Below, in pieces: positions 21,387 through 44,257 of a stretch of DNA of 64,000 bases; position 1 is the stretch's first letter, and every line of letters starts with the position of its first letter. The notes beneath the pieces are model-generated. The model saw nothing but the letters and a program-made list of their open reading frames with translations, did not search any database and had not been told where the DNA came from. The DNA lies in the NCBI GenBank assembly GCA_951406725.2, contig OX597829.1, forward strand, positions 1,612,001 through 1,676,000, written 5' to 3'. Source of the DNA: Octopus vulgaris. Taxonomy: Eukaryota. A program made the translations under genes and the position numbers.

Positions 21387-21446
<60 letters not shown>

Positions 21447-21561
21447 AAAAGCAATAAAGATTCAAGTTAATTTAAATGAATTTACTTGAATATGGTACCT
21501 AACTTAGATGCACCAAAAAACTATATGGTTTTAACAATACAGTAATGTGGCGTGATTATAA

Positions 21562-22694: not shown

Positions 22695-22715
22695 GTATAT
22701 ATATATATATATATA

Positions 22716-22785
<70 letters not shown>

Positions 22786-22791
22786 TGTGTG

Positions 22792-23095
22792 TGGAGGCGC
22801 AATGGCCTAGTGGTTAGGGCAGCGGACTCGCGGTTGTAGGATTGCGGTTTCGATTCCGAGACCGAGCGTTGTGAGTGTTTATTGAGCGAAAACACCTAAA
22901 GCTCCACGAGGCTCCAGCAGGGAGGAAGGAGCGATCCCTGCTGTACTCTTTCGCCACAACTTTCTCTCACTCTTTCTTCTGTTGGCCTGCTCGCTTAGCC
23001 AGCGGGGGTGGCGTCATTTAAAGGCTAAAACAATTCGAAGTACATTGTGACCAGCGATGTGTAACAACATATGATAGCCTGGTCGGTCACGGTGA
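22792..23095 (+). mobile_element. SINE family C
   Basis: TGGAGGCGCAATGGCCTAGTGGTTAGGGCAGCGGACTCGCGG tRNA-like head plus body ending GGTCACGGTGATA. Confidence 0.85.
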
Positions 23096-23117
23096 TATAT
23101 ATATATATATATATATG

Positions 23118-23198
<81 letters not shown>

Positions 23199-23486
23199 GT
23201 CGGTGTGTGTGTGGTGTGTGCGCGTGCGAGTGTGTGTGTATGTAAAACTATGTAGGTTAAGGCAGTACCTCAGAGGATCGAAAGCTAACCAAAACAGTAA
23301 TACATTAACTTCGAAGGTAATAATTAAATATTAAAAATTAGTTCTATTTTTCGTAGAATTTCCTTATTATATTGATAAAAGCATTTTTTTTTTTGCGTGG
23401 AAGCTTCATTTTACTTTATCTGGAGTTCACACTATAAGCATTTGACGGGGAAATATGTATCACAATGAAATTTAACAAAATTGATG

Positions 23487-24085
23487 GTGAATTTTCCTTC
23501 CCAGAAAGATACATTCTTAGTATTTGATTTGTTTTGACATGTAGCTTTGGTAAAGCTTAAATAAAGAGCATATCAGCACCAGGTAACCTATATTTTGTCA
23601 TAACAAGTCAACATGCTAAGTATTGCTTAAAAAAACTTTAGTCTAAACTCAGTTTATTACTAAATTTCTCATGGGAAATTTACGACGAGAAAAAAATAAT
23701 TTCGTCAGTACATGTTGTCGATGGCATTCGCGTCTATTATAAGAGGAGAAAGTTTACGAACACACGATGTGGCTACGCGAATGTAAAAGGATGAATTTTA
23801 TTTCCCAGAAAGATACTTTTTGATATTGATTGATTTGCTGTGACATGTGACTTCGGTAAACCTTATCAAAAGAATATCTAAGCAACAGGTAACCTACATT
23901 CTATTACGACAAGGCAAAATGTTATGAGTTACTTGAAAAAAACCTTAGACTAAACTAAGTTTATTACTGAAAAGAGTTCTTATGGGAAATACTGAGGTTG
24001 GAGGAGATGCAGTTTCGGTTACGCTGGTGTCAATATCGTTTACCTATGTCATAATACGAGAAAGTCTACGGATACAAAATGTGGT
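23487..24085 (+). ncRNA. Structured repeat units U6 and U7 (tandem pair)
   Basis: Two consecutive ~300-nt copies; both show compensatory changes in domain-2 stem P2 (GACGA/TCGTC; ACTGAG/TTCGGT). Confidence 0.6.
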
Positions 24086-24184
24086 TATTCGACTTCCTTG
24101 AAACAGCCTTTACATCTCACTCAAATAACAAAAAGTATACTCTATTAGAGGATACAAATCCTTTGTATTTTTAATGTTTTATGC

Positions 24185-25020
24185 ATTTCAGCTCAAAGGC
24201 AGTGGCCATGCTAGGGCACCGCCAGTACTAACACCTTTTCTATGGCCATTCATTTATGGTTGTCTTTTGATGAAGGAGGGGGTTCGGTATTGCTGCTCTC
24301 TTTTGAGTTTCTTGCCATGGTGTAGATTCAAGTAGGACCTTGGACAGCAGAAGATCGAGTTGTTTTTTGAAAACATCAACTCCTACACTATGTAGGTCAC
24401 TCAGAGCTTTTGGCAAGCTATTAAATAGTTCTCGCGCTAGCTATCATGCCAAGCTATGGACCTCAATTTAGACGGGAGGGGTAGAACCTTTGGAACATGG
24501 CAATGACATCTGCTTCGGGGTCTGTTATAAATCTCGATGCCAAAGTTTGGTACCAACTTTTTTAGGATCTTCCATATGTATATCACTACATGTCTCTCCC
24601 GTCTTCGCTCCAAGGAGTAGAGTCATAGCTCTTTCAGTCTCTCCCAGTAGCTCAGCTGTTCCATCGCTGCAATCAGTTCGAAATAACATATGATGGTATG
24701 TGTTTTTCAGCAGCTGCAACGCCAGAGATCAGGTGTATTGCTTGATTATATGTAACTAAGTCTCTCAGGAATTGGGTTTTGCGTTGATGGGATTTTACAA
24801 GGCTGTTGACATTCAGCAGATATATTGGTGTGACATACAGAGTTTCTTGTATCAAGATTCTTCAGGGTTTCCGCAATCAGATTGTTTGGCAGTGATCGTT
24901 CTGCAAAGTTCCATGCTAGGCACATCGTTTTGATTTCCTCAAATTGTCAGTTTCTTTGTAATTTAAAGGTGGTGCTGTCTTTGCTGTAGTTGGTTTTGAT
25001 GAGCTCCATGTTCTTGAGAT
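24185..25020 (-). mobile_element. Decayed CR1/L2-like LINE remnant
   Basis: Minus-strand remnants LLNVNSL (endonuclease start-like) and LFNSLPKAL.DL (typical CR1/L2 ORF2 C-terminus). Confidence 0.5.
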
Positions 25021-26242
25021 AGGGAGGCAGAGAGGGCAAGAAAAAGTAGAGACAGATAAGCAGATAAAAGGGTAGAGAGAGGTCGGTAGTAAAGAAAGTC
25101 AAGAAAAGTAGAGAGAGCAGTAGAGATAGAGAAACGTAAGTTGAGATGAAGAAACAAAGAGAGAAAAACGAAGATAAGAGAGATAGGGGGAGAGAGAGAG
25201 AGAGAGAGCTGAGTGAAAATATGTGAGAAAGAGAGATCGATGTAAATAGAAATGCGGAGACAGAGAGTGAAAGAATGTGGAGATGAGGGAGAGAGAAGGA
25301 TAAATCAATATAAATAGAAGAGATAGTGGAAATGGATGTCAAAGAGAGGTCAATGTAGATATAAACGAAGAGGAGTAACAAAGAGATAGAAAGGGAAGAA
25401 AGAGTGAGAGGTATAGAGAAAATAGATCAATTTAAGTGTAACTAGAGATAAAGACACAACTCAGAGGTGGTGATAAAAATTCTGTCTGACATTAGACATG
25501 TGATAATGAAAATATATAAAAATTATCAGTATGTATCGAGGAAGGCAGAAAAAAAGAGATAATAATAAACTTTTGTTTCTGTTACCTTCAGATTGGTCCG
25601 ATTAAAACGAAATAAATTTCTTCTCACTTTGTGTACTTACCCAACTTCAATGATCTAACCTACGTGATTTACTATCGAAAAATGTAAACAAACCTCAGAT
25701 TCCAGAAATTCTTGTATTTGATACTCTTTTGCAATCTACAAAATTGCATACAAACGTTTGGGTCATACAAGTTGGAATCTTCCGATCGTATTTTTCAAAG
25801 TACAGTCATACGTAGATATGAAGATATATTTACTCAACGATTAGGCGAGTTGGCCTTAATCTTTTAACGTCGAAAAATTCCTTAAAAACTGCATTACGGT
25901 TGATGGAATTAAAATATTGTTTTTTTAAATTATGGTATAATGGCAGTAATATATTTCAACCAGAGACCAATTAGATTTCAGTTCAATTCGATCTAATTGG
26001 AATTTGTCGATTCTTCCAGTATCTTAGCTTGACAGCTTTAACAAGCCGGAGTCATCTTATAAAATAAAAATTCTGAAAACAAATAATATCGATGATCTTA
26101 ATGTTGCGAAATATTATTGATACAGTCAACATTTATGATAGTCTTTCGGTGACAATATTGAGTTCAGCCAAAACCGAAACTTATTTTACTAGATTAATCT
26201 GATATTCTAGATATAAAGCTCAAAGTGCTGGAAAAAAATTAT

Positions 26243-26380
26243 GCTTACGAACCACATGGCTCCGGGTTCAATCCCACTGCGTGGCAACTTGGGCAAGTGT
26301 CTTCTACTATAACCTCGGACCGACCAATACCTTGTGAGTGGATTTGGTAGACGGAAACTGAAAGAAGCCCGTCGTATATG

Positions 26381-26471
<91 letters not shown>

Positions 26472-26690
26472 GTGTGTGTGTGTATGTTTGTATGTCTGTG
26501 TTTGTCCCCCCAACATCGCTTGACAACCGATGCTGGTGTGTTTACGTTCCCGTAACTTAGCCGTTCGGCAAAAGAGACCGATAGAATACGTACTAGGCTT
26601 ACAAAGAATAAGTCCTGGGGTCGATTTGCTCGACTAAAAGACGGTATTCCATCATGGCCGCAGTCAAAATGACTGAAACAAGTAAAATAC
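26243..26690 (+). mobile_element. SINE family B (5' truncated)
   Basis: Family core and tail present. Confidence 0.85.
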
Positions 26691-26941
26691 TAAATATAGA
26701 CAATGATGATAATATCAGGATGATAGCGATGATAAGGATTATTGTTATCAATATCTATAAATTCGATAAATGATCGCAGTGAGATTATTTTCACACTTCC
26801 TTCGATAAATATAAAAATTCTTATCTTGTTTAATAAGAAGACGGATGTGAAAGAAACAGTATTGTGGGATTGCTAACTGATGAAGTAGAACAATGATAGC
26901 TCTACAAAAAATGAAGTTAACACCTTGTTACTTCTGATATC

Positions 26942-27422
26942 TGGAGGTGCAATGGCCCAGGTGTAAGGGCAGCGGACTCGCGGTCCTAGGATCGAGGTTT
27001 CGATGCCCAGACCAGGCATTGTGAGTGTCTATTGAGCGAAAACACCTAAAGTAGTGGTCATCCCTGCTGTACTCTTTCACCACAACTTTCTCTCACTCTT
27101 TCTTCCTGTTTCTGTTGTACCTGTATTTCAAAGGGCCAGCCTTGTCACACTCTGTGTCACGCTGAATCTTCCCGAGAACTACGTTAGGGGTACACGTGTC
27201 TGTGGAGTGCTCAGCCACTTGCACTTAATAAATGAGCTGCGACGTCAATGGTGCCAAGCTGTATCGGCCTTTGCCTTACCCTTGGATAACATCGGTGGCG
27301 TGGAGAGGGGAGGCCGGTATGCGTGGGCAACTGCTGGTCTTCCATAAACAACCTTGCCCTGACTTTTGCCTCGAAGGGTAACTTTCTAGGTGCAATCCCA
27401 TGGCCATTCATGACCGAAGGGC
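26942..27422 (+). mobile_element. SINE family C variant with longer body
   Basis: Family C head; body segments shared with minus-strand copies at 40110-40345 and 46630-46930. Confidence 0.75.
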
Positions 27423-28100
27423 GTCACAATCACACACACACACACACTTCTGATATCTCATACCTATAGAGAAATAGGATTTTCTATTCTTTTATTCAAA
27501 TAATAATATATCATGGGCAACATATAATAATGTGTACTTCTTTGTCGTTGTAGATATTATTTGAACCTGCGCACATTTAGTCATCATTGTTGCTTGTCTT
27601 CTATTAATGCATGGTGTACCTAGTATTACGTTATCGAATGTGTCCCTCCTTGTTATTATTCCTAATTTAAAAGATCTTGCTTATATTAAGAAGTGGTGTA
27701 TCTAGGACTACATTACCTGGTGTATATTTTATTTATATTAGCATTATTTTTGGTCTCTTTCAGAAGACCTTCATCATCTGACCATCCGGTTGTGCTAAGA
27801 GAAACCTGTCTTTCAGCCAGTCATAGTGTATCAAGGACTACAACATTATCTAATATCTTCTTCCTTGTTGCTGCTCGGTCAAAGTAGATCCATCAGATTT
27901 ATAACCAAAATGTGTTTCAGGAGTGATTGTTTTGTCTTTCATTCCAAACGAAGGTTCCTCTCTTTGGACATTATATGCTTTATTTTTAAGAAGTTTCGAT
28001 ACGATCCTATTATGGTTTCGTTATTTTAAGCCAAGTCTAGGTGCCGTAGAATGTCCATTTATTGATAACTCACCGTTATCAGATTCAAGATTGAACATTG

Positions 28101-28310
28101 CGGCGAGCTTGCAGAATCGTTAACACGCCGGGGAACACGTCTAACGGCATTTCATCCGTCTTTACATTCTGAAATCTAATTCCGCGGAGGTCGATTTTGC
28201 TTTTCATCATTTCGGGGTCGATAAAATAAGTACCAGCTAAGCATTGGGGTCGATATAATTGATTTACCCTTCTCCTAAACTTTCTGGCCTTGTGCCAAAA
28301 TTTGAAATCA
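28101..28310 (+). mobile_element. SINE family A (diverged)
   Basis: GCGGCGAGCTTGCAGAATCGTTAAC head, tail GGCCTTGTGCCAAAATTTGAAA. Confidence 0.8.
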
Positions 28311-28416
28311 ATGTTTAACTAAGTCTAGTGTTCAGAGAGCTTATACTTTTGAAGAAAAGATTCTTAATACTATGAAATTAACAGAAAAGTTATTCAGAAG
28401 AAAACAAGCTGCAAAA

Positions 28417-28725
28417 TGGCGAATTTCATTTCGAAGCGAAATGATACATTTTTAGTAATTGATTTGTTGTGACATGTAGTTTTGATAAAACTTAACACAC
28501 ACAAAAAAAAAAAAGCCGAAGAAGAAACATATAAGCACCAGGTAACTTATATTTCGTTATGACAAGTCAACATGTTATGAATTACTTCAGAAAAACATAG
28601 TCTAAACTCAGTTTATTGCTTAAGTTCTCATGGGAAAAATCACGGTGAGAAAAAGCGTAAGTTTTACCTGCGCGGGGCTTCAATGACATTCAACTCTACC
28701 ACAAGAGGAGAAAGTTTACAAACCA
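28417..28725 (+). ncRNA. Structured repeat unit U8
   Basis: Full-length match; an A-rich insertion is confined to the apical loop of the hairpin (~28496-28530). Confidence 0.6.
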
Positions 28726-29039
28726 CAAGAAAGTCAGTCTAATTTCTGGAAATAGCAGTCGAATTTACCAGAAATCAGACATTTATAGGAACATATTAGA
28801 TAATACAAACATATGTACATTGTGCATGAAATAAAGATCTTTATAATAATGATGACGATGATGTTTTAATATTGACAAAGTTTGTTATTGTCAGTAACAG
28901 GGGGACCATACAAACAACTACACTGAAATGGTTTTCACATTTGCTTCACCAATGAATGTCAATCTTATTTAAATGGAGTATGGAAGTGAAAGATACATAC
29001 TCTATTTTGGAATTGACAACAAAGGAGACTGGACAACAA

Positions 29040-29378
29040 TCTCTCTCTCTCTATCCGCTCAGTTGAAGTCGACTCTCGGTTACTCAATGGATCAGTGTTC
29101 TCTAGCCGGTTCTATCCTGGGCCGCTTCTTTCAGATTGGCTATGTCCATTCCCGTATCACTCTTGATGGTGTCAAGCCAGCGGCTTCTTGGTCGGCTTCT
29201 TCCTCTCTTGCCACTGACCATTCCGAGCTTGATGTCCTTCTCCAGGGATTTTCTCCGCATAATATGACCAAAATATGTCAATCTATGCTTGGTGATCCTA
29301 GCTTCTAGTGACAGTTTTGGCTTGATCTGGTTAAGAACTTCTCCATTGGTGAGCCTCGCTGTCCATGGAATCCGTAAA
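29040..29378 (-). mobile_element. RTE/BovB-like LINE 3' fragment
   Basis: Minus strand encodes RIPWTARLTNGEVL..YFGHIMRR.SLEKDI.LGMVSGKRGRGRP..RWLDTI; ends in a (GA)n tail. Confidence 0.75.
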
Positions 29379-30779
29379 ACTGGACAATAATAGATGCGTG
29401 AAATATTATGTTATTGCGGTTAACTCCAGGTCAGACCTTATTCACCAAATATTTCGATCAAACTTAGCGTAAACGTAAATCTCCAGTGCTTTTTCTTTTC
29501 TTTTCTTTTTAATTCACGTAGTAATGTACCAAGAAGTACAAATGTGACTAATTTTTGTTAGATGAAGAATGGCTCAAATCCTATCACTAAATTTGTTCTG
29601 GGTGTTAAGTCTATGTTTTAACTGTATATTTATCCATTGTTTTACTGCGGTTACATTTTGTCAGGCATCTCTTTATATTCTTATTGTTGCTTCATTGAGC
29701 TTTGTACAAGATAATTCTTGCAGATCAATGATTAAGGGCGCTCCTTCCATGACCAGCCCTTAATTTAAATACGGAGATGTACTTTGATTACAGCATATAA
29801 ATGTCTCTCGTTGTTGTTATTTAGTCACATGTCATCGATCAACCATCAGTGACCAAGTTATTCTACTTTACCATTATATATTTTGGCCGAATTCTGCTTT
29901 AAACACGCCATATAACTACTAATGACTTTCTATTTTTTGGGAATTTTCAGAAAACTTTTGTGAATTTGTATTCTACCACTCCTTGTTTCATAACCCGTGT
30001 CTTTCTATCCTGGCTGCTATTTCCTGTAGTAGGCAAAACCTGTACATACACACACATACACAAATATATGCATATATATATATATATATAAAAGAAAGAA
30101 AATGCACATACTTTACATAGTTTTAATATACGTTAAAATTTATTTTATAAGTGAAAGTGTATTGCGTTTGTCGACCGGTTTCGCTTTCGCTAATAATGAC
30201 ATTTAGATTATTGTAATTTCGTATTTTCTTACGAAAATTTTAGTCCGTGTTCGTTTGGTAGTTTGTGAATGAAATGAATCAACAGGTAGAAAAATCTCAG
30301 GGAATGTAAGTGATGATGGTTATTATTCGGAACAGGGGAAGTAATTGCTCATTTTGGGGGAGGGGATATACTAAAACTCAAATGCTAAATTATTGAGATT
30401 AAATATTTACAGTGATGTGTATGTATACCACACCCACACACACACATTTAGACGTGTATGTACATATGTGCATATGTGTGTGCGCTTGTGCGTGTCTGCG
30501 TGTATGTGTAAAATTATAAGGTGTTGAAAATGCACTAAATTTGTGTGGTTGTGTCTGTGTATTTGCATAAAAAAAGTTATATTTTTTTTAACCTAGAATG
30601 CATGTTTCATGTTTCCCAGAGGGAAGACCCTCTTCTCCCGGATCTTGTAGGTTTTGAATTATCATCGTTACCCTTGTAACTTTGCTTTTTCCTGGCAGAA
30701 AAAGCAATCCAATTTTTACCTCTTGAAAATGTGGTCTACATTAGTCTGGCCTCTGTTCTTTGACTTATCCAGCACAAGA

Positions 30780-31112
30780 GGCCCTATGGGGTCCTTGCGT
30801 TCTACAGGCTTAGATTGAGGTACACAAGCTACAAAAGCCATACACTCGTACATACTTAATAAACGAAATGGACAGTGAAGCCCTCTGAGCTCCAGGATGT
30901 GACCGAAAATTTAGATTATGTCAAATTTCTGAGGGAGACATCACACATGTAAACAGCACTTTCCCCGAAAATGTCATCTGGGTTCCATCTCCCAATGCGA
31001 CATGACATCTACCTCAAATTAAACTGTTCTAGGATAAATTTAGAGAATTCCCTCCTGTTACAGAATACGTAGATAAGTATCAACCCAAAAAACATTGGTG
31101 GAACATTCCCAT

Positions 31113-31114
<2 letters not shown>
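30780..31114 (+). mobile_element. Decayed RLE-class (Dong/NeSL-like) non-LTR fragment
   Basis: Frameshifted RK.RLCQ.SE.DITHV..PKMSS..LPMRHD and KHWWNIPI resemble the zinc-knuckle region before the RLE domain. Confidence 0.45.
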
Positions 31115-31181
<67 letters not shown>

Positions 31182-31781
31182 TGTGCATGGATAAATGCAA
31201 ACATTTATGTATGCATATGTATATGCATGCATACATGATGTCTGTCCACTAAAAACACTGTGTATTCCGACAGAATTATACTTTATCCATCACTGGAGAC
31301 TGATAAGCCCAGCTCTTGATTGACATGCATGTCTGCAGATACTGCCCACGAAACGTTTCCCATTCACTGCACTGGCAGTGTGTTTTTGAGTCCCTCACTT
31401 CAGATAATGCACAATGTGCATTTCTTCAAAAACATCCTCTCTTTCCTTTACTAATTGCGCCATTGGTAGCGGTGATAATTTGTTTCTTCCCCAATTGATC
31501 TCCCATATTTCGCATATCTTCAACGAGGACTTTATACCATACTTAAACCGTAATCTTGGTTTCCGCTTTTTGCGCCATATAGCATTTGTGTAATGATCCT
31601 TTGATCATTCATCCGAACAAGCGCGTAATCCGTGCTTGTGCATCTTCGACTCAATGCTCAGGATGTCGGACCCCCTCCTGACCTCTGTGTCTGAGGTCCT
31701 CAAGGTCTAGCCATGGTAAATACTTATACACACACCATACGTTCACACAGGTATACATACATACAAGCACATACATACGTA

Positions 31782-31855
<74 letters not shown>

Positions 31856-32005
31856 GTGAAATAGAAAGATGAATAATCTTGTAGTAGATTAATCAAAAGT
31901 TTAACCGATACCTTAGTAGCAAAAATCACAGCAGTAAAACAGCACGGTTGGAGGTACAACCATATGGTGTTGCAACCGTGCGTTGGTGCGGATAATTGAA
32001 ATTAG

Positions 32006-32463
32006 AACATTATTGGTGAATTGAAGAAATGGAGCTGAACGCAGATTGAACAGAAATCGTTTTATTTCATTCTACACGTGTTTCGAAAGGCACAAATTAC
32101 CAAAATCCGATGGAATAATGGAACCATATTGTGTCTTTCTCTTCAGGAAGAAAATAGGAAATCCGTTGGAAAAACAAAAACAGAACAGAGGCGGAGCAAA
32201 AACAAATCGAACTATGCTCCTAAGAGCCCATGGCGCGCCATGGGCTCTTAGGAGCATAGTTCGATTTGTTTTTGCTCCGCCTCTGTTCTGTTTTTGTTTT
32301 TCCAACGGATTTCCTATTTTCTTCCTGAAGAGAAAGACACAATATGGTTCCATTATTCCATCGGATTTTGGTAATTTGTGCCTTTCGAAACACGTGTAGA
32401 ATGAAATAAAACGATTTCTGTTCAATCTGCGTTCAGCTCCATTTCTTCAATTCACCAATAATG

Positions 32464-32465
<2 letters not shown>
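32006..32465. mobile_element. Perfect 460-bp spacerless palindrome of a third Penelope-type terminal repeat
   Basis: Centre CATGGCG|CGCCATG at 32235/32236; identical ORFs predicted on both strands. Confidence 0.8.
32315..32408 (+). ncRNA. Type I hammerhead ribozyme (mirror copy at 32063-32156, minus)
   Basis: TATTTTCTTC-CTGAAGA-GAAAGACACAA..TTGTGCCTTTC-GAAA-CACGTG-TA-GAATGAAATA; palindromic stem III ACACGTGT, GUA triplet. Confidence 0.8.
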
Positions 32466-32513
<48 letters not shown>

Positions 32514-32578
32514 AGAGAGAGAGAGATGTACTTGCATAGCGAGTGACTTGATCTGAGATCGTGTGCTGGAACGAAAGC

Positions 32579-32817
<239 letters not shown>

Positions 32818-33139
32818 ATAGATATAGATATAGATATAGATATAGATATATAGATATAGATATGCACACAAACACACACACGTACATATACGCATGCATA
32901 CATACACATGTAATTAATTTGATTTGTTATTAAAAAGTGTAAATATTTTGTATTATTTTGTCAGTTGAATATTGTGTTCAGGCGATTTACCTCAGTCAGG
33001 TAAAAGTTTGACCGTTGCATCTAAATTTTACAACTCTAATTTGAGGTTCAAACCACATGCTTACACTAAAGAAGGAAAAGCACACGTGATTGATATTAAT
33101 CTCAGTAAAACAATATACTAAAGTAAATTTCTCATAAAA

Positions 33140-33735
33140 ATGGCAAATTTATTGCAGAAATGTAACAGCTTTACTAACTGATTTGCTGTGACATAGTAGC
33201 TTTGGTAAACCTTATCAAAAGAATATCTAAGCACGAGGTGACCTACATTTTGTTATGGCAAGTCGACATGTTATGAATTGCTTCAAAAATTGTTAGTCTA
33301 AACTCAAGTTTATAACTGGAAACAGTTATCATGGGAAAAATTACTGTGAGAAAAAATAAAGTTTCACCTGTGCATGTTGTCAATGGCATTCACCTTTGCC
33401 ATAACATGAGAAAGTTTAGGAACACACGATGTGGTTACACGACTGCACATGGTAAATTTTATTTCTCAGAGCGATACACTTTTAGTAACTGATTTGCTTT
33501 GACATGTAGCTTTGATAAACCTCAACAAAAAAACATATGTGCACCAAGAAACCTAAACTTTGTTGTGACAAATCAGCAGGTTAATGAATTACTTAAAAAA
33601 AGCCTTACACCAAATTCAATTTATTACTGAAGTAAATTCTCATGAGAAAAATTTCGGTGGGAAAAAATTAAGTTTCATCTGTGTAGGTTGTCGATGGTAT
33701 TCACCTCTGTCATAAGAAGAGAAAGTTTACGAATC
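33140..33735 (+). ncRNA. Structured repeat units U9 and U10 (tandem pair)
   Basis: Two consecutive copies; compensatory pairs TTGCTG/TGGCAA (U9) and CTGATTTG/CAAATCAG (U10). Confidence 0.6.
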
Positions 33736-33879
33736 CTTTAGGAATTATATATATGGAAACAGTACTGCTGGAAATGATATTCAAATCTCCCTCAAATTCA
33801 TCCCACCATATGAAAGAAGAATGTATTAGATAATTCATATCTAGATGACATTTCTTATGAAACAAAAGTTATGATTTTG

Positions 33880-34476
<597 letters not shown>

Positions 34477-34995
34477 GGCTCTCGTGGCTTCTGATCTTAA
34501 CTGATTGGAAGTGTTATCATGTACATTGTTTTGTTTTGGTATAAAAGATGGACTAACATCAAATATTCTGCTCAATACCACAGATTTGCTTGTCAGTTGT
34601 TTGACCTTAACCAGTTGACCATGTCCCTTAGAGGCTGACGATATGTGCATCTCTGATCACGAGCAGAAGTAGTGGGGGAGCATCATAGCCATGTGTTGAG
34701 AGGGATTATTTGGGATTAGAATAATTCACCTTTGGAAACATGGGTGTTTCGTTCAACATCCTTAAACAACCCTTATTCAGGGACCTTTTGTGTGGGATGG
34801 GCTACTTGATCAGAAGGCAATTCTAACTGGGCCCCACCTGCAAGGTCATACGCTGTTAATCTTGATATGAGATCACCATGTCACGCACATATGGTTGTGA
34901 TGCATGTGCCTGGTGTACCCTTATTAGACGGGTATACTGGGCTTCGTATATTTTACCCCAGTGTCACTTTGATAGCATGCACTGCTCTCTCACTT
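34477..34995 (+). mobile_element. ~520-bp non-coding element embedded in (AAT)n
   Basis: GGCTCTCGTGGCTTCTGATCTTAACTG..CTGCTCTCTCACT(AAT)n; near-identical copies at 57723 and 58960. Confidence 0.75.
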
Positions 34996-35744
34996 AATAA
35001 TAATAATAACAACAACAATCACAACGATATTAACCATGAGAAAGTTTATGGACCTGCGAAATATGCTTAAGGGTCTACTTTAGAAGTGCAGATCAACCTC
35101 AGTTCACACCTTATTATTTTCTAAAGGAGATAGAAGATAATGTAAGACTGAGTTTATTGATTATTAAATATAGATTAGGGTAATGAAAACAACGACAACA
35201 AAAATAATAAAGATTATGTTTATTGCTTCCTGCGAACTCAATATATTTTATAATACTGAGACCTTTTTCTTCAGCTCCTTATCTTCTGATGTGGTAATTT
35301 TTGTTTGATTTAATTGGAGGAAAGAAGTGATGTAAGCAAACAAGATTGTGGGAGTGTGGGATTGATAGCTAATTAAGATTGTACTAGGTACACGGATCAA
35401 GAAGTTATTGTTATTTTTCTCAAGGTGTGTCCTCAACCATCAGCACAACAACCATTCAAGTTATTCAATCTGTGGATCTCCAGGTAATATTTATTGCGTC
35501 TACGTTTACAAAACAAACGTAACTTTACATTTTACTAATGTGCAACGCAACAAGGCCAGTCTTTATTCTGCAGATTTTATCTATTTTAACTGGGTGCAGA
35601 AGTGAAAGAAACATGTTATATTGTGGGATTTTTTAATTTTTCTCTTGAACCACGATTAATGCTTGTTCCCTATTCTCGGTAGAACTTCTTTCAGCTTTGG
35701 TCTTTTGATTTGAGACAGCGTCTTCTTACAGTCGTAATATTCTT

Positions 35745-36075
35745 ATTTCTTTACTGCCCACAAGGGGCTAAACACAGAGAGGACAAAACAAGGACAGACA
35801 TAGGTATTAAGTCGATTACATCGACCCCAGTGCGTAACTGGTACTTAATTTATCGACCCCGAAAGGATGAAAGGCAAAGTCGACCTCGGCGGAATTTGAA
35901 CTCAAAACGTAACGGCAGACGAAATATCTATTTCTTTACTACCCACAAGGGGCTAAACACTGAAGAGACAAACAAGTACAGACAGACGATTATATCGACC
36001 CCAGAACGTAGCGGCAGACGAAATACCACTAGGCATTTCGCCCGGCGTGCTAACCTTTCTGCCAGCTCGCCACCT
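35745..36075 (-). mobile_element. SINE family A (rearranged dimer)
   Basis: Two partial minus-strand copies. Confidence 0.8.
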
Positions 36076-36915
36076 TTTATACTGTCGCAATATTCTATTC
36101 ACCCTGTTATTTTATATGATTTTGTATGTATCCCTCACACTAGATCTTATTTTTAGTTCCATGTTAATCAGGACGGTAGTGGAGCTAAAGACAGGATTAA
36201 GGAATATGAAGTCTGTGATCAAGTAACTTTCCTCTCTGCTATTCAATCTTAGCTTATTTACTTATTTCAATAAATAGTACTGTGGCCATGCTGGGGCACT
36301 GCCTTGAAGGGCTAAGTCAAACAAATCGACCCTAGGACTTATCTTTAAGTCAGATACTTATTCTACCAATTGTGAAGAAGTATTTGGGAACAAGTACTAA
36401 TCAAAAGACACACACACATGCGCATGTATGTATGTATGCATGTATGTATCTGTGTATGTATGTATGTAAGTATGCATGTATGCATGCATGTATGTGTTTG
36501 TGCAGCAAGTTTCTCAAAAAAGAACGCTCATACCTAGTTTTACATCATCTAATGTGTTAGTACCTTCTTGTTGATTACTACCAAATCATTCTTGTTCCAA
36601 GGGACCAATGATCAGATGTGATCCGCCAATCTTTTTGTTCAAATACTTTTTACAACAAACTACATTGTGTTATTTTTTTGCTGTATGTCATATACCCAGT
36701 CTGTTGAGGTCAAGCTTATCAAAGCTGTACCAATTGTGTTAATACCGTCTTCTACTGAAATATAATTAATAAAGTATCACATCCTTCAAGTTATTCAACC
36801 TGTGGATCTCCAGGTAATATTTATTGCGTCTAGGCTTGAATCTAGCAGTGCGAAAGGAATTTGATGGGCAAAAACTACGAAAGCTCTTCGATACATACAT
36901 ACACACATACATACA

Positions 36916-36948
<33 letters not shown>

Positions 36949-37271
36949 GCATACATACCTATATACCTATATACATAAATGAGCATCCATATACATACGT
37001 TGATGTATTTATTCGAACGTAATATTAAAGCATCAAAAATGCTAATTTATAGTACCATTCTGCCACGTTTCAGTGCGTCCAAAAGACGACGTCTTCGGGT
37101 AATAATCCTCACCAAGGACCAAGGGTTAACCTAGTATCTTTATTTTCCTAACCTCGCCTTATGGTCTAACCGTAAGCCTGAAAGTAAAAAAAAACAACAA
37201 TATATCATCATGCAATAATATACCCACAAAATCTACAGAAATAAACATGATGTAACTATGATGAAATTTAT

Positions 37272-37694
37272 GGATCTTTTCGGTTTGAAAGGCAGTTTTG
37301 TCTAGCGGTGTCCTATGAAATTGTCACCCATAATTATGTCCCTAGTATCGATCTATTGCATTTCAATCTGTTTTAGGGTTAGGGTTAGAGTTAGGGGTGG
37401 GGCGAAGGATATCTTTTTTTCTTCACAAATGTAAATTAACCCAATCTGTTTCTTAAACGAAGGACATATTCATACAGCACAGAATGTTTTCGCCTCAATA
37501 GACGTCATTGATTGGCTGAAATTGCAGAAATTGAAGAGAAAAAACAACAAATATCTTACAAACTATAGAATTTTCTGAATAAAGCCAAGAGAAAAAGATG
37601 TTTTATAAGCACATTCTACCAGTATATGAAGTTTAAAAGTGTTTAGCTGCGTGGAAATTATTTTAAAAAACTGCCGTTCAAACCGAAAAGATCC
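37272..37694. mobile_element. MITE with 28-bp TIRs and 8-bp TSD
   Basis: TIR GGATCTTTTCGGTTTGAAAGGCAGTTTT / AAAACTGCCGTTCAAACCGAAAAGATCC; TSD AAATTTAT on both sides; internal TTAGGG repeats. Confidence 0.9.
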
Positions 37695-38250
37695 AAATTT
37701 ATTCCTAGTGCGAATTTTTGAAGTGATTTATTTCATGTGACATGTAGTTTTGGTAAGCTTTAACAAAAGCCATATTTAGCACCAGGTAACCAACCTATAT
37801 CGCGTCATGAGAAGGCAACATCTTATGAATTACTTAAAAATAAATAGTCTAAACTCAGCTTATTAATTTCCTTGAGAAAAATTACGGAGAGAAACAAGTA
37901 TGGCTTCACCTGCCTGGTCTGTCAATGGCATTCACTTCTACCATAACATGAGAAAGCTTACGAACGTGTTCTCGACTGTAAAATGGTGAATTTATATCCC
38001 AAAGAGATACATTTTTAGTAATTGATTTGTTTTGACAAGTAGCATTGGTAAAACTTAAGACAAGAACAACTAAATACTAGGTAACCTATACTTTGTTATG
38101 ACAAATCAACATGAATTACTTCATAAAACGTTCTAAGCTAACTTTGTTACCGAGGTTCTCATGGAAAAATTTACGGAGAGAAAAAATATGGTTTCATGTT
38201 TACAGGTTGTCATTAGCTTTCATCGCTACCATAACACGAGAAAGTTGTAG
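37695..38250 (+). ncRNA. Structured repeat units U11 and U12 (tandem pair)
   Basis: Two consecutive copies beginning right after a MITE insertion. Confidence 0.6.
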
Positions 38251-38335
38251 AGCCGAAATCTGAAGGAAAGCCTCTCGATACATACGTGTCTACACACATA
38301 TCCACACCCACACGCACACATTAATACATACATGC

Positions 38336-38366
<31 letters not shown>

Positions 38367-38373
38367 CATACAT

Positions 38374-38467
<94 letters not shown>

Positions 38468-38469
38468 GT

Positions 38470-38783
38470 GTGGAGGCGCAATGGCTCAGTGGTTAGGGCA
38501 GCGGACTCGCGGTCGTAGGATCGCAGTTTCGATTCCCAGACCGGGCGTTGTGAGTGTTTATTGAGCGAAAACACCTAAAGCTCCATGAGGCTCCGGCAGG
38601 GGTTGGTGGCGATCCCTGCTGTACTCTTTCACCACAACTTTCCCTCACTCTTTCTTCTGTCGGCTTGCTCGCTTAGCCAGCGGGGTTGCGTAATTTGAAG
38701 GCTAAAACAATGCGAAGCGCATTGTGACCAGCGATGTGTAGCAACATCTGATAGCCTGGTCGGTTACGGTGATCACGGTGATA
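38470..38783 (+). mobile_element. SINE family C
   Basis: Full-length copy. Confidence 0.85.
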
Positions 38784-39179
38784 TATACACGTACACACAC
38801 TTACACGCACACACATGTATTTTAAAGAAAAATTTTATTAAAAGTTATTATGTGCTTAAAAAGATTTTTTGAAAAATGGAGGGAACCCTGTGGAATGAAA
38901 TTTTCGTAGTGTATGTGTGAGTTTTGTGTTGAATCCGAGTAGAGGAAATTGACTATTTCCAGTCTAATATCGGATTTAGAATGCTTATAAAATATTCTTC
39001 TTTCTTAGTGAATTATTTCCTTTTATTTTATTTTGAAAAAAAGGGGTAATATTTTGCATTTTTTATTTGCTCAAATGATATGTTCACAATGTAAAATGCT
39101 TCTAAGAGAGCAGTCTTAGATTTATAATATGCACTTTCACATACATACACTCTCTCTTTTTCTCTCTCTTTCCCCTCGT

Positions 39180-40107
39180 TCCAAAAGGATTTATGCTTGA
39201 AGGCAAAACAACTACTTTGATAACCAATATTACCAAGAAATACGAGGTACGGGAATGAGACCGAAAGTCATATCAACGTTTGCGACACTAGTAATGAGAT
39301 TCTTGGAAGAAAAATCTATACGTTGTCTGAAATTACTTTTCTTTATGAAAATTGCCAATCTTGTTTAAGAGGAAACTGGAAAAGATCCATGGATGACTGC
39401 TTCGTATTTTAGAACAAAGCTAAATGGGATAAAAAGAGCTTTACAAGATTTCTTAAATTAATGTATAGCATTCAAGGATCGATACAGTTCATTGTGGAAA
39501 TAAACGAAAGGGAGCTCTCCCCATTTTCGGACATTCTGATAATTAAAGAAACAGTTACAACCGATACTTAGTTCAAGGACATAGACACACACCAATATCT
39601 ATATTTTAGATCTTACCATTCATACCATTCAGTATAGAAGGACGTATATTCTCAATAGTGACAGACATCACCAGATGAGAGAAATAACTTATAGAACAAA
39701 ATATATTTCTTCAGAAAGAAAAATACCCACAAAACCTAGTAAATCATGCCATAACAACAACAACAAAATCCCAATCTCTGCTTACAATAATGGTGAAAAC
39801 AAACCCACAAATAAAAATATTTCATTTGTATTTACCCATAAAAAAACACAGAATCTTGCAATCGGCCAAAGGATACCTTTCAGTTCTGCATCATAATTAA
39901 AGAATCACAAATCATCAAAGCCGAGGACATCCACCACATTTCAAAAAACTCTCAAGAAGAGCTAAATCCGCATCAGTGAAAGAAGCAATACAGGTACCAA
40001 ATGTAGAGACCTTCGTTGTGGGACGGGTGGAGTAATCGAAAAACGGAACAACCAAAAGATTCAAGAATGGAAAGAAACTGAAAGTGAATGCAAATATGAA
40101 TTGCAAG
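39180..40107 (+). mobile_element. Decayed Penelope-like RT fragment
   Basis: Remnants MDDCF, PF.DILIIK, THQYL.F.S.H, TKCRDLRCGT, NGKKLKVNANMNC, collinear with the element at 9100-11080. Confidence 0.7.
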
Positions 40108-40345
40108 TGACTGAGCACCCCACAGACACGCATACCCTTAATGTAGTTCTCGAGGAGATTCAGCATGACACAGAGTGTGACAAGACTGGCCCTTTGAAAT
40201 ACAGGTATTACTCATTTTTGCCAGCTGAGTGGACTGGAGCAACGTGAAATAAAGTGTCTTGCACAAGGACACAACGCGTCGCCGGGAATCGAACTCACGA
40301 CCTTACGATCGTGGGCCGACTGCCCTACCCACTAAGTCACGCCTA
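40108..40345 (-). mobile_element. SINE (family C-related)
   Basis: Shares body with 27120-27220; tRNA-like head on the minus strand. Confidence 0.7.
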
Positions 40346-40975
40346 CATACATCTATACATAAAAACATACAAAGATTCATGCATACATACATACAAACAT
40401 ACATTCTTACATACATACATGCATGCATGCAAATATTCATACATACATACATACATACACACATACACACATACATTCAAACATACATACATACATACAT
40501 ACATACTTACATGCATGCATACATACATACATACATACATACATACAAACATACATGCATACATACATACATATACATACATACATACATACATACATAC
40601 ATACATACATACGTACGTACGTACATACATACACACACATACATACATACATACATACATACATACATACATACATACATACATACATACATACATACAT
40701 ACATACATACATACATACATACATACATACATACATACATACATACACACACATACATACATACAAACATACATGCATACATACATACATATACATACAT
40801 ACATACATACAAACATACATGCATACATACATACATATACATACATACACACACATACATACATACATACATACATATATACATACATACATACATACAT
40901 ACATACATACATACATACATACATACATACATACATACATACTTACATAAATATATCACATACTACATACATATA
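40345..40975. repeat. (ACAT)n microsatellite
   Basis: Directly visible. Confidence 0.95.
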
Positions 40976-41346
40976 TCAAACACAGTAACCATATGACATT
41001 CGAAAATTCTAAATTTTACTTATTATTTCCTGATAATGGATGGATTGGTACTATAATTAGTATTTTTCGATTACTCCACCCGTCCCACAACGAAGGTCTC
41101 TACATTTGGTACTTGTATTGCTTCTTTCACTGATGCGGATTTAGCTCTTCTTGAGAGTTTTTTGAAATGTGGTGGATGTCCTGTACTTTGTACTGTCGTA
41201 TTCAGCTCAAACAGAATCCTTAATCTAGATTTTAATAACTTTTTCTATCGTTTAACCATAAATCTGTACTTTTCAATGAAAATACATATTACTATTAAAT
41301 GTGTCTCAAAAATATTTATACAGCAACAAATTAGTTCCAGAAATAA

Positions 41347-41922
41347 GGAATTTTATTCCCAGCGAATTTAGTTTTTCAGCAACTGATTTGTTGTGATGTG
41401 TAGCTTCGGTAAACTTTATCAAAAGAACGCCTAAGTACTAGGTAACCTATACTTTGTTATGACATATTAACATGTTAGGAATTACTTCAAAAAATCTTAG
41501 TCTAAACTCAATTTATTACTGAAGTTTGTTCTCATGAGAAAAATTGCGGTGAAAACAAAAAATATAGTTTCACCTGTGCAGGTTATCCATGACATTCACT
41601 TCTAACAGGAGAATGTTTACGAACACACGTTGTGGTTACTTGCATGCAAAATGGCGTATTTTATTCCCCAGATAGATACATTATTATCATTTAATTTGTT
41701 ATGACATGTAGTCTTATCAAAAGAACATATAAGCACCAGGAAACCTACACTTTGTTATGACAAGTTAAGTTCTGAATTGTTTCAAAAACCTTTGTCTAAA
41801 TTCAGTTTATTACTCAAGTTAGTTCGTATGGGAAAAATTACGATGAGAATATAATGTAATGTTCTGCCATTACAGGTTGTCAATGCCATTCACCTCTACC
41901 ATAATAACATGAGAATATTTAC
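41347..41922 (+). ncRNA. Structured repeat units U13 and U14 (tandem pair; U14 has a deletion in the hairpin 5' arm)
   Basis: Two consecutive copies matching the consensus. Confidence 0.55.
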
Positions 41923-42619
41923 GGCCAGGAGGCAGCCACTTGAACTCTACCAAAAAGCTCTTAAATCTCCCTCACATCATACCTTATTGTGTTAAAACAG
42001 AATACTTCAAAATGCAAGCCTATATAAAATGTCTATGAAGTGCAGACTATAATGCTACTGTTAGATTTAAGAATAAGACCAGCAGTGTTTAGATAAATTT
42101 CGCTTCGGTAGGAATTGATTTGGTATCATTTATTCAAACATAATTCTTTCAATAGTTCATTATCTGTTTTCTCCATCTTTGTTTTAAGTGCGTTAGAGAA
42201 AGGTCATTCCAACAGATGTATGTTCAAATGCTTTCACTCCGAGGCTCTCCTTAATATTATTCCGAAATTGTGTATGTACCAATAAACGATCTAAATTGTC
42301 CTTGCATATTTGTGCTCACCCATCAGAACTATGATCAAGTTGTTCCAGAGTTGAGCATCGTATATTTTATTAAAAAATTATATATCTTGCTATATTCTAC
42401 TTCAGGACATATTAACCGACACTACATGTCATACTGTATGTAAACTTTACATCCGTATATACATTATATCTTCGAACAAAGTTTGTATATTAATGCGAAA
42501 CACACATGCTGTCTACAAATTCCTAGATATATTTTAATGTGAATTACATCAATAAAACTAAAAAAAACTGTTAACACAGTTATAATTAAATATTTCAAAC
42601 GTTAATGAAATGTTAAATA

Positions 42620-42782
42620 GGCGCAGGAGTGGCTGTGTGGTAAGTAGCTTGCTTACCAACCACATGGTTCCGGGTTCAATCCCACTGCGTGGCACCTTGG
42701 GCAAGTGTCTTCTACAATAGCCTCGGGCCGACCAAAACCTTGTGAGTGGATTTGGTAGACGGAAACTGAAAGAAGCCCGTCG

Positions 42783-42836
<54 letters not shown>

Positions 42837-42945
42837 TGTGTCTGTGTTTGTCCCCCTAGCATCGCTTGACAACCGATGCTGGTGTGTTTACGTCCCCGTA
42901 ACTTAGCGGTTCGGCAAAAGAGGCCGATAGAATAACTACTGGGAT
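42620..42945 (+). mobile_element. SINE family B (3' truncated)
   Basis: Head and core present. Confidence 0.85.
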
Positions 42946-43194
42946 TACTGTTGAAAAATGTTAATTCATTGAATTAAGTCCTGATTGTTTTTCTGTCCAA
43001 ACATTTCGACAGACCTGATAGAGGAACATTTTCAAGTCTAACTTTACGTCCATGTCGATGTTTGAACCTGGAATTTGTACCTTACTAACTTGGTCTGATT
43101 TCCAAAAGATGATGTTATAATCTTGAAGTAAAAATGCGTATTTTTATAATATGAGTAAAAATGTATGAAAATCAACAAACTGCTTTAATAAACT

Positions 43195-43770
43195 GTTTAT
43201 ATTCCCAGAGAGATAAGGTTTTTTATTAATTGATTTGTTTTGACATGTAGCTATAGTAAACTTTAATTAGAGAACATACAAGTACCAGGTAACCTACATT
43301 TTGTTATGACAAGTTAATATATTATGAATTAGTTAGAAAAACCGTAGCTTAAGCTTAGTTTGTTACTAAACTCAGTTCTCATGGGAAAAATTACGGTGAG
43401 AAAAGTAAAGTTTCACCTGTACGGCTTTCACCTCAACCATAGCATGAAAACGTTTATGGTTACACGATTGCAAAATGGTAAATTTTATTTCCCAGAGAGA
43501 TACATTTTTAATAATTGATTTGCTGTGACATGTGGCTTTGATAAACTTTAGCAAAAAAACATCTAAGTACCAAGTAAACTACACTTTCTATAAGAGGTCA
43601 TGTTATGAATTACTTCAAAAATCTCAATTTTGTTAGTTCTTTTGGGAAAAATTACGGTGATAAAAAAATGAAAGTTTCACCAGTACAAGTTGTGAATGGC
43701 ATTCATATATACATTTTTATATATAGATGCTCATATAATTTCACCTCTACCGTCCACGAAAAAGTTTACT
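43195..43770 (+). ncRNA. Structured repeat units U15 and U16 (tandem pair, each with an indel)
   Basis: U15 lacks most of stem P3; U16 has a damaged 3' arm and an AT-rich insertion in P3. Confidence 0.55.
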
Positions 43771-43854
43771 GACCAAAGAAGAACTCTTAAGACCGTCCAT
43801 GGGTCTGCAGGTCTGCTGGAATCAGCAGGAAAATCACTATAATATCTCACCATA

Positions 43855-44228
43855 ACACATGGTTCCGGGTTCATTCCCACTGCGTGGCACCTTGGGCAAG
43901 TGTCTTCTACATTAGCCTCGGGCCGACCAAAGCCTTGTGAGTGGATTTCGTAGACGGAAACTGAAAGAAGCCCGTCATATGTATGTATATATATATATGC
44001 GTGTGTGTGTTTGTGTGTCTGTGTTTGTCCCCCTAACATTGCTTGACAACCGATGCTGGTGTGTTTATGTCCCCGTTACTTAGCGGTTCGGCAAAAGAGA
44101 CCGATAGAATAAGTACTGGACTTACAAAAGAATAAGTCCCAGGGTCGAGTTGCTCGATTAAAGGCGCTGCTCCAGCATGGTTGCAGTCAAATGACTGAAA
44201 CAAGTAAATGAGTAAAAGAGAGTAAGGA
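43855..44228 (+). mobile_element. SINE family B (5' truncated)
   Basis: Core and tail present. Confidence 0.85.
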
Positions 44229-44257
44229 GTATAGGAATATACTAATGACGTAAACGG

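What the first reader, a model, noticed from the sequence alone, without database searches (positions are those of the whole stretch)
33178..33267. Domain 1 is a pri-miRNA-like hairpin with Microprocessor motifs
Seen (consensus; coordinates are for U9): lower stem TTGATTTGTTGTGAC pairs with GTTATGACAAGTCAA. Above it, arms of equal length ATGTAGCTTTGGTAAACCTTA and TAAGCACCAGGTAACCTACAT flank a ~13-nt loop. A UG lies at -14/-13 from the predicted 5' cut. A CNNC lies ~15 nt after the 3' cut and varies only in its middle positions in several copies: CAAC (most), CGAC (U9), CAGC (U10), CGGC (U18); it is lost in about six copies. Compensatory pairs occur in U9 (TTGCTG/TGGCAA), U10 (CTGATTTG/CAAATCAG), U5 (CTTTG/CAAAG) and U6 (GTCATAAC). 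Established: basal UG and CNNC are Drosha-processing determinants. Inference: mature products ~UAAGCACCAGGUAACCUACAUU (3p) and ~AUGUAGCUUUGGUAAACCUUAUC (5p). Caveat: the duplex has only ~16 pairs and two asymmetric loops.
Basis: partly seen in the sequence, partly recalled or inferred. Interest (0 to 1): 0.85.

Follow-up and report, generated by a model that had tools for sequence, protein, structure and literature searches.

The report
Twenty-copy octopus hairpin array, weak microRNA
A 52-kb stretch of a mollusc (likely octopus) chromosome holds 20 old, diverged copies of a hairpin whose two arms changed much less than its loop and surroundings, so it is likely a decaying cluster of microRNA-like RNA genes, but the part that would become the microRNA is predicted to pair far more weakly than known microRNAs of the same genome and no RNA from it has been shown.

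Summary
The repeat and its hairpin are real; the 'Microprocessor motifs' are not evidence. Twenty ~290-bp units (19 on one strand) lie in window 870-53000 and were found nowhere else in a 2.8-Gb mollusc genome. They arose in one old burst (star tree, 11-23% from consensus). The 31-pair hairpin shows constraint: arm substitutions are 0.64 of expectation against 1.09 in the loop, transversions at paired sites number 33 against 83 expected, indels are 4-5 times rarer, and 7 of 7 double changes keep the pair. Against a canonical miRNA: the proposed precursor folds at only -0.6 to -8.4 kcal/mol (seven mir-2 precursors of this genome: -15.5 to -24.9). The G of 'UG' pairs with the first C of 'CNNC', which lies inside the stem at +14/15. 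The proposed 3p seed differs in 10 of 19 copies and the proposed 3p sequence occurs exactly in none. A·C is tolerated as often as G·U. Best reading (0.4): a lineage-restricted, C19MC-like cluster of weak pri-miRNA-shaped hairpins, now partly decayed. Rivals are a non-miRNA structured RNA or a DNA-level element. Small-RNA reads are needed.

The parts
870..53000 (.). Array of 20 ~290-bp units (7 head-to-tail pairs at ~300-bp spacing and 6 singles) separated by SINEs and microsatellites
   Evidence: no copy in 100 kb either side; genome searches find only this locus
33178..33266 (+). U9 domain-1 hairpin (consensus 41-128)
   Evidence: z -3.0 for the hairpin alone, z -1.65 with flanks
33178..33193 (+). 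U9 lower stem, 5' side (16 nt); the best-conserved segment of the unit
33179..33180 (+). 'Basal UG'; its G pairs with C33264
33189..33214 (+). Best-conserved 22-nt windows (starts at consensus 50-55); candidate 5p guide, start predicted at 33189-33191 rather than 33193
   Evidence: O/E 0.52-0.57; stem geometry, inferred
33215..33227 (+). 13-nt apical loop; unconstrained; no UGU/GUG
   Evidence: O/E 1.09
33228..33249 (+).
33251..33266 (+). U9 lower stem, 3' side
33264..33267 (+). 'CNNC' (CGAC); first three bases are paired in the lower stem
33326..33412 (+). Domain 2 of U9: weaker constraint, no strand preference in folding
912..1025 (+). U1 hairpin region
1219..1335 (+). U2 hairpin region (5 arm changes)
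3205..3318 (+). U3 hairpin region; the unit is split by a SINE
6012..6128 (+). U4 hairpin region (5 arm changes)
16283..16401 (+). U5 hairpin region; fewest arm changes (3 of 75)
23511..23627 (+). U6 hairpin region
23817..23933 (+). U7 hairpin region
28446..28586 (+). U8 hairpin region; 24-nt insertion in the loop
33476..33593 (+). U10 hairpin region (14 arm changes, decayed)
37714..37834 (+). U11 hairpin region (decayed)
38009..38120 (+). U12 hairpin region
41370..41486 (+). U13 hairpin region
41678..41781 (+). U14 hairpin region; 10-nt deletion in the upper 5' arm
43217..43333 (+). U15 hairpin region
43502..43614 (+). U16 hairpin region; lower stem broken (7 of 16 pairs)
44283..44399 (+). 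U17 hairpin region; keeps all 31 consensus pairs
48772..48882 (+). U18 hairpin region
49029..49142 (+). U19 hairpin region (5 arm changes)
52841..52957 (-). U20 hairpin region; the only inverted copy, at the end of the array

Best explanation
This is a single-locus array of 20 old duplicates of one hairpin whose arms changed far less than its loop and flanks, and it is likely a lineage-restricted, now partly decayed cluster of weak pri-miRNA-like RNA genes that would be read from the + strand. Shown: a segment carrying the hairpin plus at least a few hundred bases of flank was copied in one burst, and transposons later filled the spacers; base pairing and arm length were preserved beyond chance; some copies (U10, U11, U13, U16) have since drifted at close to the flank rate. 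Inferred: a long Pol II transcript crosses the array; Microprocessor measures 13 nt up from the base of the 36-nt stem and crops near consensus 52-54, not 56; the better-kept 5' arm is the likelier guide; because the duplex is weak, yield would be low, limited to the best copies (U5, U6, U17, U19) or helped by neighbouring hairpins, probably in a tissue or stage that is poorly sampled.
For: 20 copies, 19 in one orientation, confined to one locus. Saddle-shaped conservation: arms O/E 0.64 (157/244) against loop 1.09, Fisher p 8e-5; tree-based arms 0.76 against rest 1.07, lowest of 275 positions of the mask. For the same copy pairs, JC distance is 0.16 in the hairpin, 0.34 in domain 2 and 0.50 in the downstream flank (7 of 77 pairs with an alignable flank), and 0.24 against 0.50 upstream (8 of 78 pairs). 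Transversions at paired sites: 33 against 83 expected; ts/tv 2.7 against 1.47 in local SINEs, p 0.004. Indel events: 0.004 per nt per copy in the arms against 0.016-0.023 elsewhere. 7 of 7 double changes are compensatory, P 0.002-0.005; 7/500 and 14/500 shuffles reach it. + strand folds better than -. Stem 36/39 nt and loop 13 nt fall in the optimal ranges of PMC5340965. Unpaired arm bases are as conserved as paired ones (0.12 against 0.11), as expected if the arm sequence is the product. The architecture parallels C19MC (PMC2691840).
Against: The precursor folds at -6.1 kcal/mol for the consensus (z +0.3) and -0.6 to -8.4 in the copies; other registers reach at best -11.7. Seven mir-2 precursors of this genome give -15.5 to -24.9 (GC 0.38-0.46 against 0.35). 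Expected duplex pairs average 5.9 (maximum 12.4) against 12.2-18.8; the top helix reaches probability 0.5 in 0 of 19 copies, also at 18 C. The consensus has 16 pairs against 19 +/- 1.6 in MirGeneDB, with bulges in both bulge-depleted zones. No register puts UG, CNNC and CmR in place together. No seed is invariant. Single changes give G·U no more often than A·C (34/50 against 31/40 expected). Default RNAalifold finds no consensus; only RIBOSUM scoring does. The octopus set of PMC9699675 has 94 novel genes in 90 families, so no 20-member novel family. No Rfam match.
Confidence: 0.4

Rival explanations
1. A structured RNA element that is not cut into miRNAs: the strong 16+5-bp basal helix and the conserved A-rich internal loops form a docking site for a double-stranded-RNA-binding protein (ADAR or Staufen type), repeated 20 times along a non-coding or intronic transcript.
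For: The stable and best-conserved part is the lower stem (probability >= 0.5 in 9 of 19 copies), which diverges freely among the mir-2 controls. Unpaired UAAA at 68-71 has 1 change in 19 copies. A·C is tolerated. The duplex is too weak for an ordinary precursor.
Against: No transcript is shown; no known family matches; the stem and loop lengths match pri-miRNA optima, which this reading does not require.
Confidence: 0.27
2. A DNA-level element: an inverted repeat built from quasi-palindromic motifs (TGTYRTGACA twice, GGT(A)AACC twice) that works as a duplicated cis-regulatory module or cruciform, or that is kept similar by conversion between arms and between copies.
For: G·U and A·C outcomes are symmetric, as expected if both strands count. 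The best-conserved 7-mers are motif-like islands (GACATGT, TGATTTG, ATGACAA, TGGGAAA). Conservation falls off gradually into the flanks.
Against: The compensatory changes restore pairing between the arms while breaking symmetry within a motif (U9, U11, U18), and neighbouring G·U pairs stay uncorrected, which tract conversion would erase. The consensus has 6 G·U pairs and folds only on +. 19 of 20 copies share one orientation.
Confidence: 0.2
3. Neutral decay of a locally amplified segment that happened to hold an inverted repeat; nothing was selected after duplication.
For: Star tree with near-uniform site rates (gamma alpha 6.5); many copies no longer fold; the hairpin was singled out after the fact; slid registers also show small all-compensatory counts (3/3, 2/2, 3/4).
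Against: Depletion of transversions and indels and the arm-versus-loop contrast are each significant; the flanks are 2-3 times more diverged.
Confidence: 0.08
4. A long-loop miRNA in the other register: the lower stem is the duplex (5p = consensus 41-62, seed UGAUUUG) with a 43-nt loop.
For: 21 pairs; seed kept in 14 of 19 copies; U at positions 1 and 9; wobbles at 10-11.
Against: A 90-nt precursor, whereas molluscan precursors are under 80 nt (PMC11701709); the basal stem beneath it is only +0.5 to -7.7 kcal/mol; no UG or CNNC in place.
Confidence: 0.05

Closest known systems
C19MC, the primate chromosome-19 miRNA cluster (PMC2691840; passages read)
   Same: Tens of related hairpins in one locus of 50-100 kb, each inside a longer repeated unit (400-700 nt there; ~290-bp core plus weaker flanks here) interleaved with SINEs; lineage-restricted.
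   Different: C19MC hairpins are shown Microprocessor substrates in introns of a spliced Pol II host transcript. Here no transcript, conserved splice signal or small RNA is shown, the duplex is weak, and SINE orientation in the array is not biased overall (16:9, p 0.23).
Canonical bilaterian pri-miRNA as defined in MirGeneDB 3.0 (PMC11701709, section 9 read) and PMC5340965 (passages)
   Same: Stem of 36/39 nt, 13-nt loop, equal-length upper arms, arms conserved and loop free.
   Different: 16 duplex pairs against 19 +/- 1.6; CNNC paired instead of single-stranded; no UGUG, CmR or invariant seed; precursor energy about a third of the in-genome controls.
mir-2 cluster of the same genome (G000:C1:107.57 Mb)
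   Same: Same-strand cluster of paralogous hairpins made by local duplication.
   Different: mir-2 copies lie within 1.7 kb, keep seed and mature sequence while the lower stems diverge, and fold at -15.5 to -24.9 kcal/mol. The array here spans 52 kb, keeps the lower stem best and varies in the seeds.
Cluster-assisted suboptimal hairpins such as miR-15a (10.1101/858647; abstract only)
   Same: Poor substrates can be processed when a good hairpin lies on the same transcript.
   Different: Shown in mammals only; no strong helper hairpin was found in this window or in 14 flanking loci.

Membership tests
Canonical animal microRNA gene | Expressed 20-27-nt reads from both arms with homogeneous 5' ends and 2-nt overhangs | not testable with these tools
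   Only assembled contigs were offered; these cannot show ~22-nt products
Canonical animal microRNA gene | Stem of 33-39 nt with an 8-16-nt apical loop | tested here: met
   Consensus 36/39-nt arms, 13-nt loop (ranges)
Canonical animal microRNA gene | Well-paired mature/star duplex (19 +/- 1.6 pairs) | tested here: not met
   16 pairs at best in the consensus; ensemble mean 5.9, maximum 12.4; -0.6 to -11.7 kcal/mol against controls 12.2-18.8 pairs and -15.5 to -24.9
Canonical animal microRNA gene | Basal UG at the single-/double-strand junction, -14/-13 | tested here: inconclusive
   Present in 16 of 19 only if the cut is placed at 56; stem geometry points to 54; 0 of 7 mir-2 controls have it
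Canonical animal microRNA gene | CNNC in the single-stranded 3' flank, about +17/18 | tested here: not met
   At +14/15 and inside the lower stem; none at +14 to +21 for cuts at 115 or 117; controls +17/18 in 5 of 7; single-stranded location
Canonical animal microRNA gene | Apical UGU/GUG and CmR (mGHG) motifs | tested here: not met
   No UGU/GUG; position -5 is T, T or G for cuts at 54-56. These motifs are optional in real miRNAs
Canonical animal microRNA gene | Seed conserved among paralogues | tested here: not met
   3p seed kept in 9 of 19, 5p seed (start 56) in 10 of 19; best window 53-59 has 6 changes in 133 cells, chosen after the fact
Canonical animal microRNA gene | Arms conserved, loop variable, pairing maintained | tested here: met
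Any Rfam family (miRNA, snoRNA, snRNA, tRNA) | Match to a covariance model | tested here: not met
   0 at gathering score in the window; 8 chance matches with E >= 1.2 in 41200-44700, only one (E 2.9/5.6, minus strand) touching a unit's 3' edge; ARAGORN 0
Dispersed transposable element (SINE/MITE) | Copies dispersed through the genome | tested here: not met
   12 of 13 matches to the 5' pattern and 11 of 15 to the 3' pattern lie in the array, the rest at control level; single-copy depth in three DNA runs
Repeated protein-coding exon | Open frame and codon-position rate pattern | tested here: not met
   4-10 stops in each of six frames; identity 0.836/0.847/0.835 by phase
H/ACA snoRNA | Two hairpins with a guide pocket, conserved H box and ACA | tested here: not met
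   No pocket 14-16 nt from the ACA after domain 1; terminal ACA columns change 5-6 times; rule recalled

The most novel reading that the evidence does not exclude
An editing-gated small-RNA cluster: the hairpins are poor Microprocessor/Dicer substrates as encoded and become usable only after A-to-I editing closes A·C mismatches. This would explain why A·C is tolerated like G·U and why A69, invariant in 19 copies and facing C94, is the single A whose reading as G most stabilises the precursor (-6.6 to -10.0 kcal/mol, best of 24). It would be the largest cephalopod miRNA cluster and would tie miRNA biogenesis to cephalopod RNA editing.
Probability: 0.06. Interest if true: 0.88.

Novelty: new variant of a known kind. 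Interest (0 to 1): 0.5.

Why it matters
Octopus miRNA expansion has been described as many single-gene families (94 genes in 90 novel families, PMC9699675). A 20-copy same-strand hairpin array would be a different mode, closer to mammalian placental clusters. It could have been missed because that study required presence in two species and sampled no ovary and no embryo before stage XI (Table S1). If it is not a miRNA cluster, it is an unclassified structured element with measurable constraint. Either way it is directly testable by mapping existing octopus small-RNA libraries to 20 known coordinates. It also shows how UG and CNNC 'motifs' can arise from a single stem base pair.

Tried and rejected
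Expression: no RNA holder listed. One RNA-labelled contig set had no cover over U13-U17; neither result is evidence. Cross-species constraint: three DNA runs differ from the window by about 0.4%; among the 40 listed rows (18 not shown) one change falls in the arms of U13-U17 (43298 A>G, keeps a G·U pair), about what chance gives, so there is no power. Host gene: 150 of 279 unmasked ORFs of 62 aa or more in the window and 200 kb of flank were scanned against Pfam; only transposon domains and one sub-threshold LRAT hit were found; short exons are not excluded. Conserved splice sites, SECIS, hammerhead, spliced-leader, C/D box and Pol III A/B boxes were considered by eye against recalled consensus rules and rejected because the key bases vary. 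Domain 2: doubles 9/13 to 12/17 compensatory (P 0.03-0.3), no strand preference; weak. Folding at 18 C does not rescue the upper duplex. SINE strand bias: none overall. Literature: the arm sequences were searched in full text (15 of 19 hits listed, all unrelated by title) and in supplements of PMC9699675, PMC11701709, PMC8125070 and PMC12479628 with no match to this hairpin among the places shown. PMC9699675's data archive could not be read and MirGeneDB's own sequence lists were not available, so one or two copies could be annotated there. Topic searches found no paper on such an array. Searches (bacterial promoter scan; laminin G) had no bearing.

Full report
Setting. The window lies at G000:C16:1612001-1676000 in a 2.8-Gb, 227-contig genome. 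It encodes molluscan haemocyanin. With the genome size and the microsatellite load this points to an octopus; that step is inferred. No host gene was found: 150 of 279 unmasked ORFs from the window and 200 kb of flank gave only transposon domains in Pfam. Rfam has no match in the window and ARAGORN none.

The repeat family. There is none in 100 kb on either side. Two DNA searches of the whole genome return only this locus. Pattern searches with two mismatches put 12 of 13 and 11 of 15 matches in the array, the rest at control level. Three public DNA contig sets cover U13-U17 at single-copy depth while nearby SINEs reach millions. So this is a local amplification, not a transposon. The tree of 19 copies (U3 left out because a SINE splits it) is a star: internal branches are 4% of its length and tips 0.11-0.23. 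Local SINEs are only 5-8% from their consensus, so the array is older than they are. Weak homology runs some hundreds of bases beyond the 290-bp core. The unit is not coding.

The hairpin. Seven of 20 copies reach z <= -2 on + and one on -. Default RNAalifold gives no consensus on either alignment. With RIBOSUM scoring it returns exactly this structure, -17.7 on + against -11.2 on -.

Evidence of constraint. Arm substitutions are 157 against 244 expected from linker and domain-2 rates (0.64) while the loop is at 1.09 (p 8e-5). Parsimony on the tree gives 0.76 against 1.07. For copy pairs whose flanks still align (7 of 77 downstream, 8 of 78 upstream; a selection that favours similar flanks, and the pairs are not independent) the JC distances are 0.16 in the hairpin, 0.34 in domain 2 and 0.50 in the flank, and 0.24 against 0.50 upstream. 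At paired sites transversions are 33 against 83 expected and transitions 90 against 111; ts/tv is 2.7 against 1.47 in local SINEs (p 0.004). Indel events are 4-5 times rarer in the arms. All 7 double changes at paired columns are compensatory, with P 0.002-0.005 under independence and 69 of 183 in control column pairs; 7/500 and 14/500 shuffles reach the count. That signal is moderate: about 3 of the 7 are expected by chance, and slid registers show small all-compensatory counts too. Constraint is uneven, from 3 to 14 arm changes of 75 per copy (heterogeneity p 0.04, but p 0.02 in the rest of the unit too). Against an RNA-specific reading, single changes give A·C as readily as G·U (31/40 against 34/50 expected).

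The motifs. G43 of the 'basal UG' pairs with C126, the first base of the 'CNNC'; U14 changes both and keeps the pair. The middle bases change almost only A>G, which keeps pairing with U41 and U42, and the two Cs vary as often as the middle. The CNNC starts at +14 or +15 and three of its bases are in the stem, whereas MirGeneDB places it on the single-stranded 3' end (PMC11701709) and 5 of 7 mir-2 controls have one at +17/18. The cut site was chosen to fit UG; measuring 13 nt from the stem base gives 54, where -14/-13 is AT and no CNNC lies at +14 to +21. There is no apical UGU/GUG or CmR. Of the four cited compensatory cases, two are real (U9, U10).

The duplex. The proposed precursor (56-112) folds at -6.1 kcal/mol in the consensus (z +0.3) and -0.6 to -8.4 in 19 copies; registers 54-117 and 52-119 reach at best -10.9 and -11.7. 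As an in-genome control I took the mir-2 cluster. Seven of its 8 fetched hairpins could be scored (one lacked the seed string used) and gave -15.5 to -24.9 kcal/mol and 12.2-18.8 expected duplex pairs, against a mean of 5.9 and a maximum of 12.4 here (19 copies, U8 left out). The controls are somewhat richer in GC (0.38-0.46 against 0.35) and were folded with slightly longer flanks. The lower stem is probable in 9 of 19 copies, the 6-pair helix in 3 and the top helix in none, at 37 or 18 C. MirGeneDB gives 19 +/- 1.6 pairs. The stem length and loop are optimal by PMC5340965, but the bulges fall in its two bulge-depleted zones. The proposed 3p seed is kept in 9 of 19 copies and the 3p 20-mer occurs exactly in none. 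The best-conserved 22-nt windows start at 50-55 on the 5' arm.

How it most likely works. Shown: local amplification, constraint on arm sequence, pairing and length, and decay of several copies. Inferred: a + strand transcript carries the hairpins, and the best ones are cropped inefficiently by Microprocessor near 52-54 to give a 5p guide, in the manner of a young C19MC-like cluster that is turning over (0.4). I weigh it that way because same-strand hairpin clusters with conserved arms and free loops in animal genomes are usually miRNA clusters (own knowledge), while a reconstructed ancestor this weakly paired is rare among them. The rivals are a protein-binding structured RNA (0.27), a DNA-level or conversion-maintained inverted repeat (0.2), neutral decay (0.08) and a long-loop miRNA made from the lower stem (0.05). 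It should not be filed as a miRNA family: duplex pairing, CNNC position and seed conservation were tested and not met, and expression is untested.

What is known. PMC9699675 (section 6, passages, Tables S1, S3 and part of S4 seen; PDF supplement searched; data archive unreadable) reports 94 genes in 90 novel families, which leaves no room for a 20-member novel family, though one or two copies could be among them. PMC11701709: section 9 read whole, supplement searched. PMC5340965, PMC2691840 and PMC12479628: passages (the last also supplement search). PMC8125070: supplement search only, first places shown. 10.1101/858647: abstract. No paper describing this array came up. Earlier scan notes hold nothing on this genome or sequence; word look-up gave similar arrays in an annelid, which are unchecked and not support.

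Verdict. A real, apparently unannotated 20-copy hairpin array with good evidence of past or partial selection on pairing. It resembles a tandem miRNA cluster in layout, fails several membership tests, and lacks expression data. Interest 0.5.

Noticed in passing
window 20803-21363, 21583-22673, 32003-32468, 39916-41190, 47805-48219: Long self-inverted repeats (95%, 99%, near-perfect, 81% and 71% identity), foldback- or MITE-like; much stronger hairpin formers than the units.
   Followed up: no
window 61407-62393 +: 328-aa open frame of a mariner/Mos1-type transposase (HTH_48 and Transposase_1).
   Followed up: partly
window 6685-7197 -: 170-aa frame that looks like the GIY-YIG endonuclease end of a Penelope-type element (recalled resemblance; this frame was not scanned).
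   Followed up: no
window U2, U7, U10, U16 (1219, 23817, 33476, 43502): Second-of-pair units share diagnostic changes (C at consensus 49 in all four; A at 67 in U2, U10, U16), hinting that a two-unit module was itself duplicated.
   Followed up: partly
window 49187-49258: 28-bp tandem triplication inside domain 2 of U19.
   Followed up: no
consensus 192-199, e.g. window 33331-33338: CATGGGAA/CATGAGAA is among the best-conserved 7-mers outside the hairpin; U4 and U18 read CGTG(G/A)GAA, a recalled Su(H)/CSL-type site.
   Followed up: no
window 800-53100: One tRNA-headed SINE family is oriented 6:0 on + inside the array (p 0.03, uncorrected, one of nine tests); the other two are unbiased.
   Followed up: partly
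G000:C1:107570240-107571891 (L021-L028): Compact mir-2 cluster of 8 hairpins over the Rfam cut-off, used as the positive control.
   Followed up: yes
L005 1489-2015: Degenerate large-subunit rRNA fragment about 49 kb upstream of the window (136 bits).
   Followed up: no
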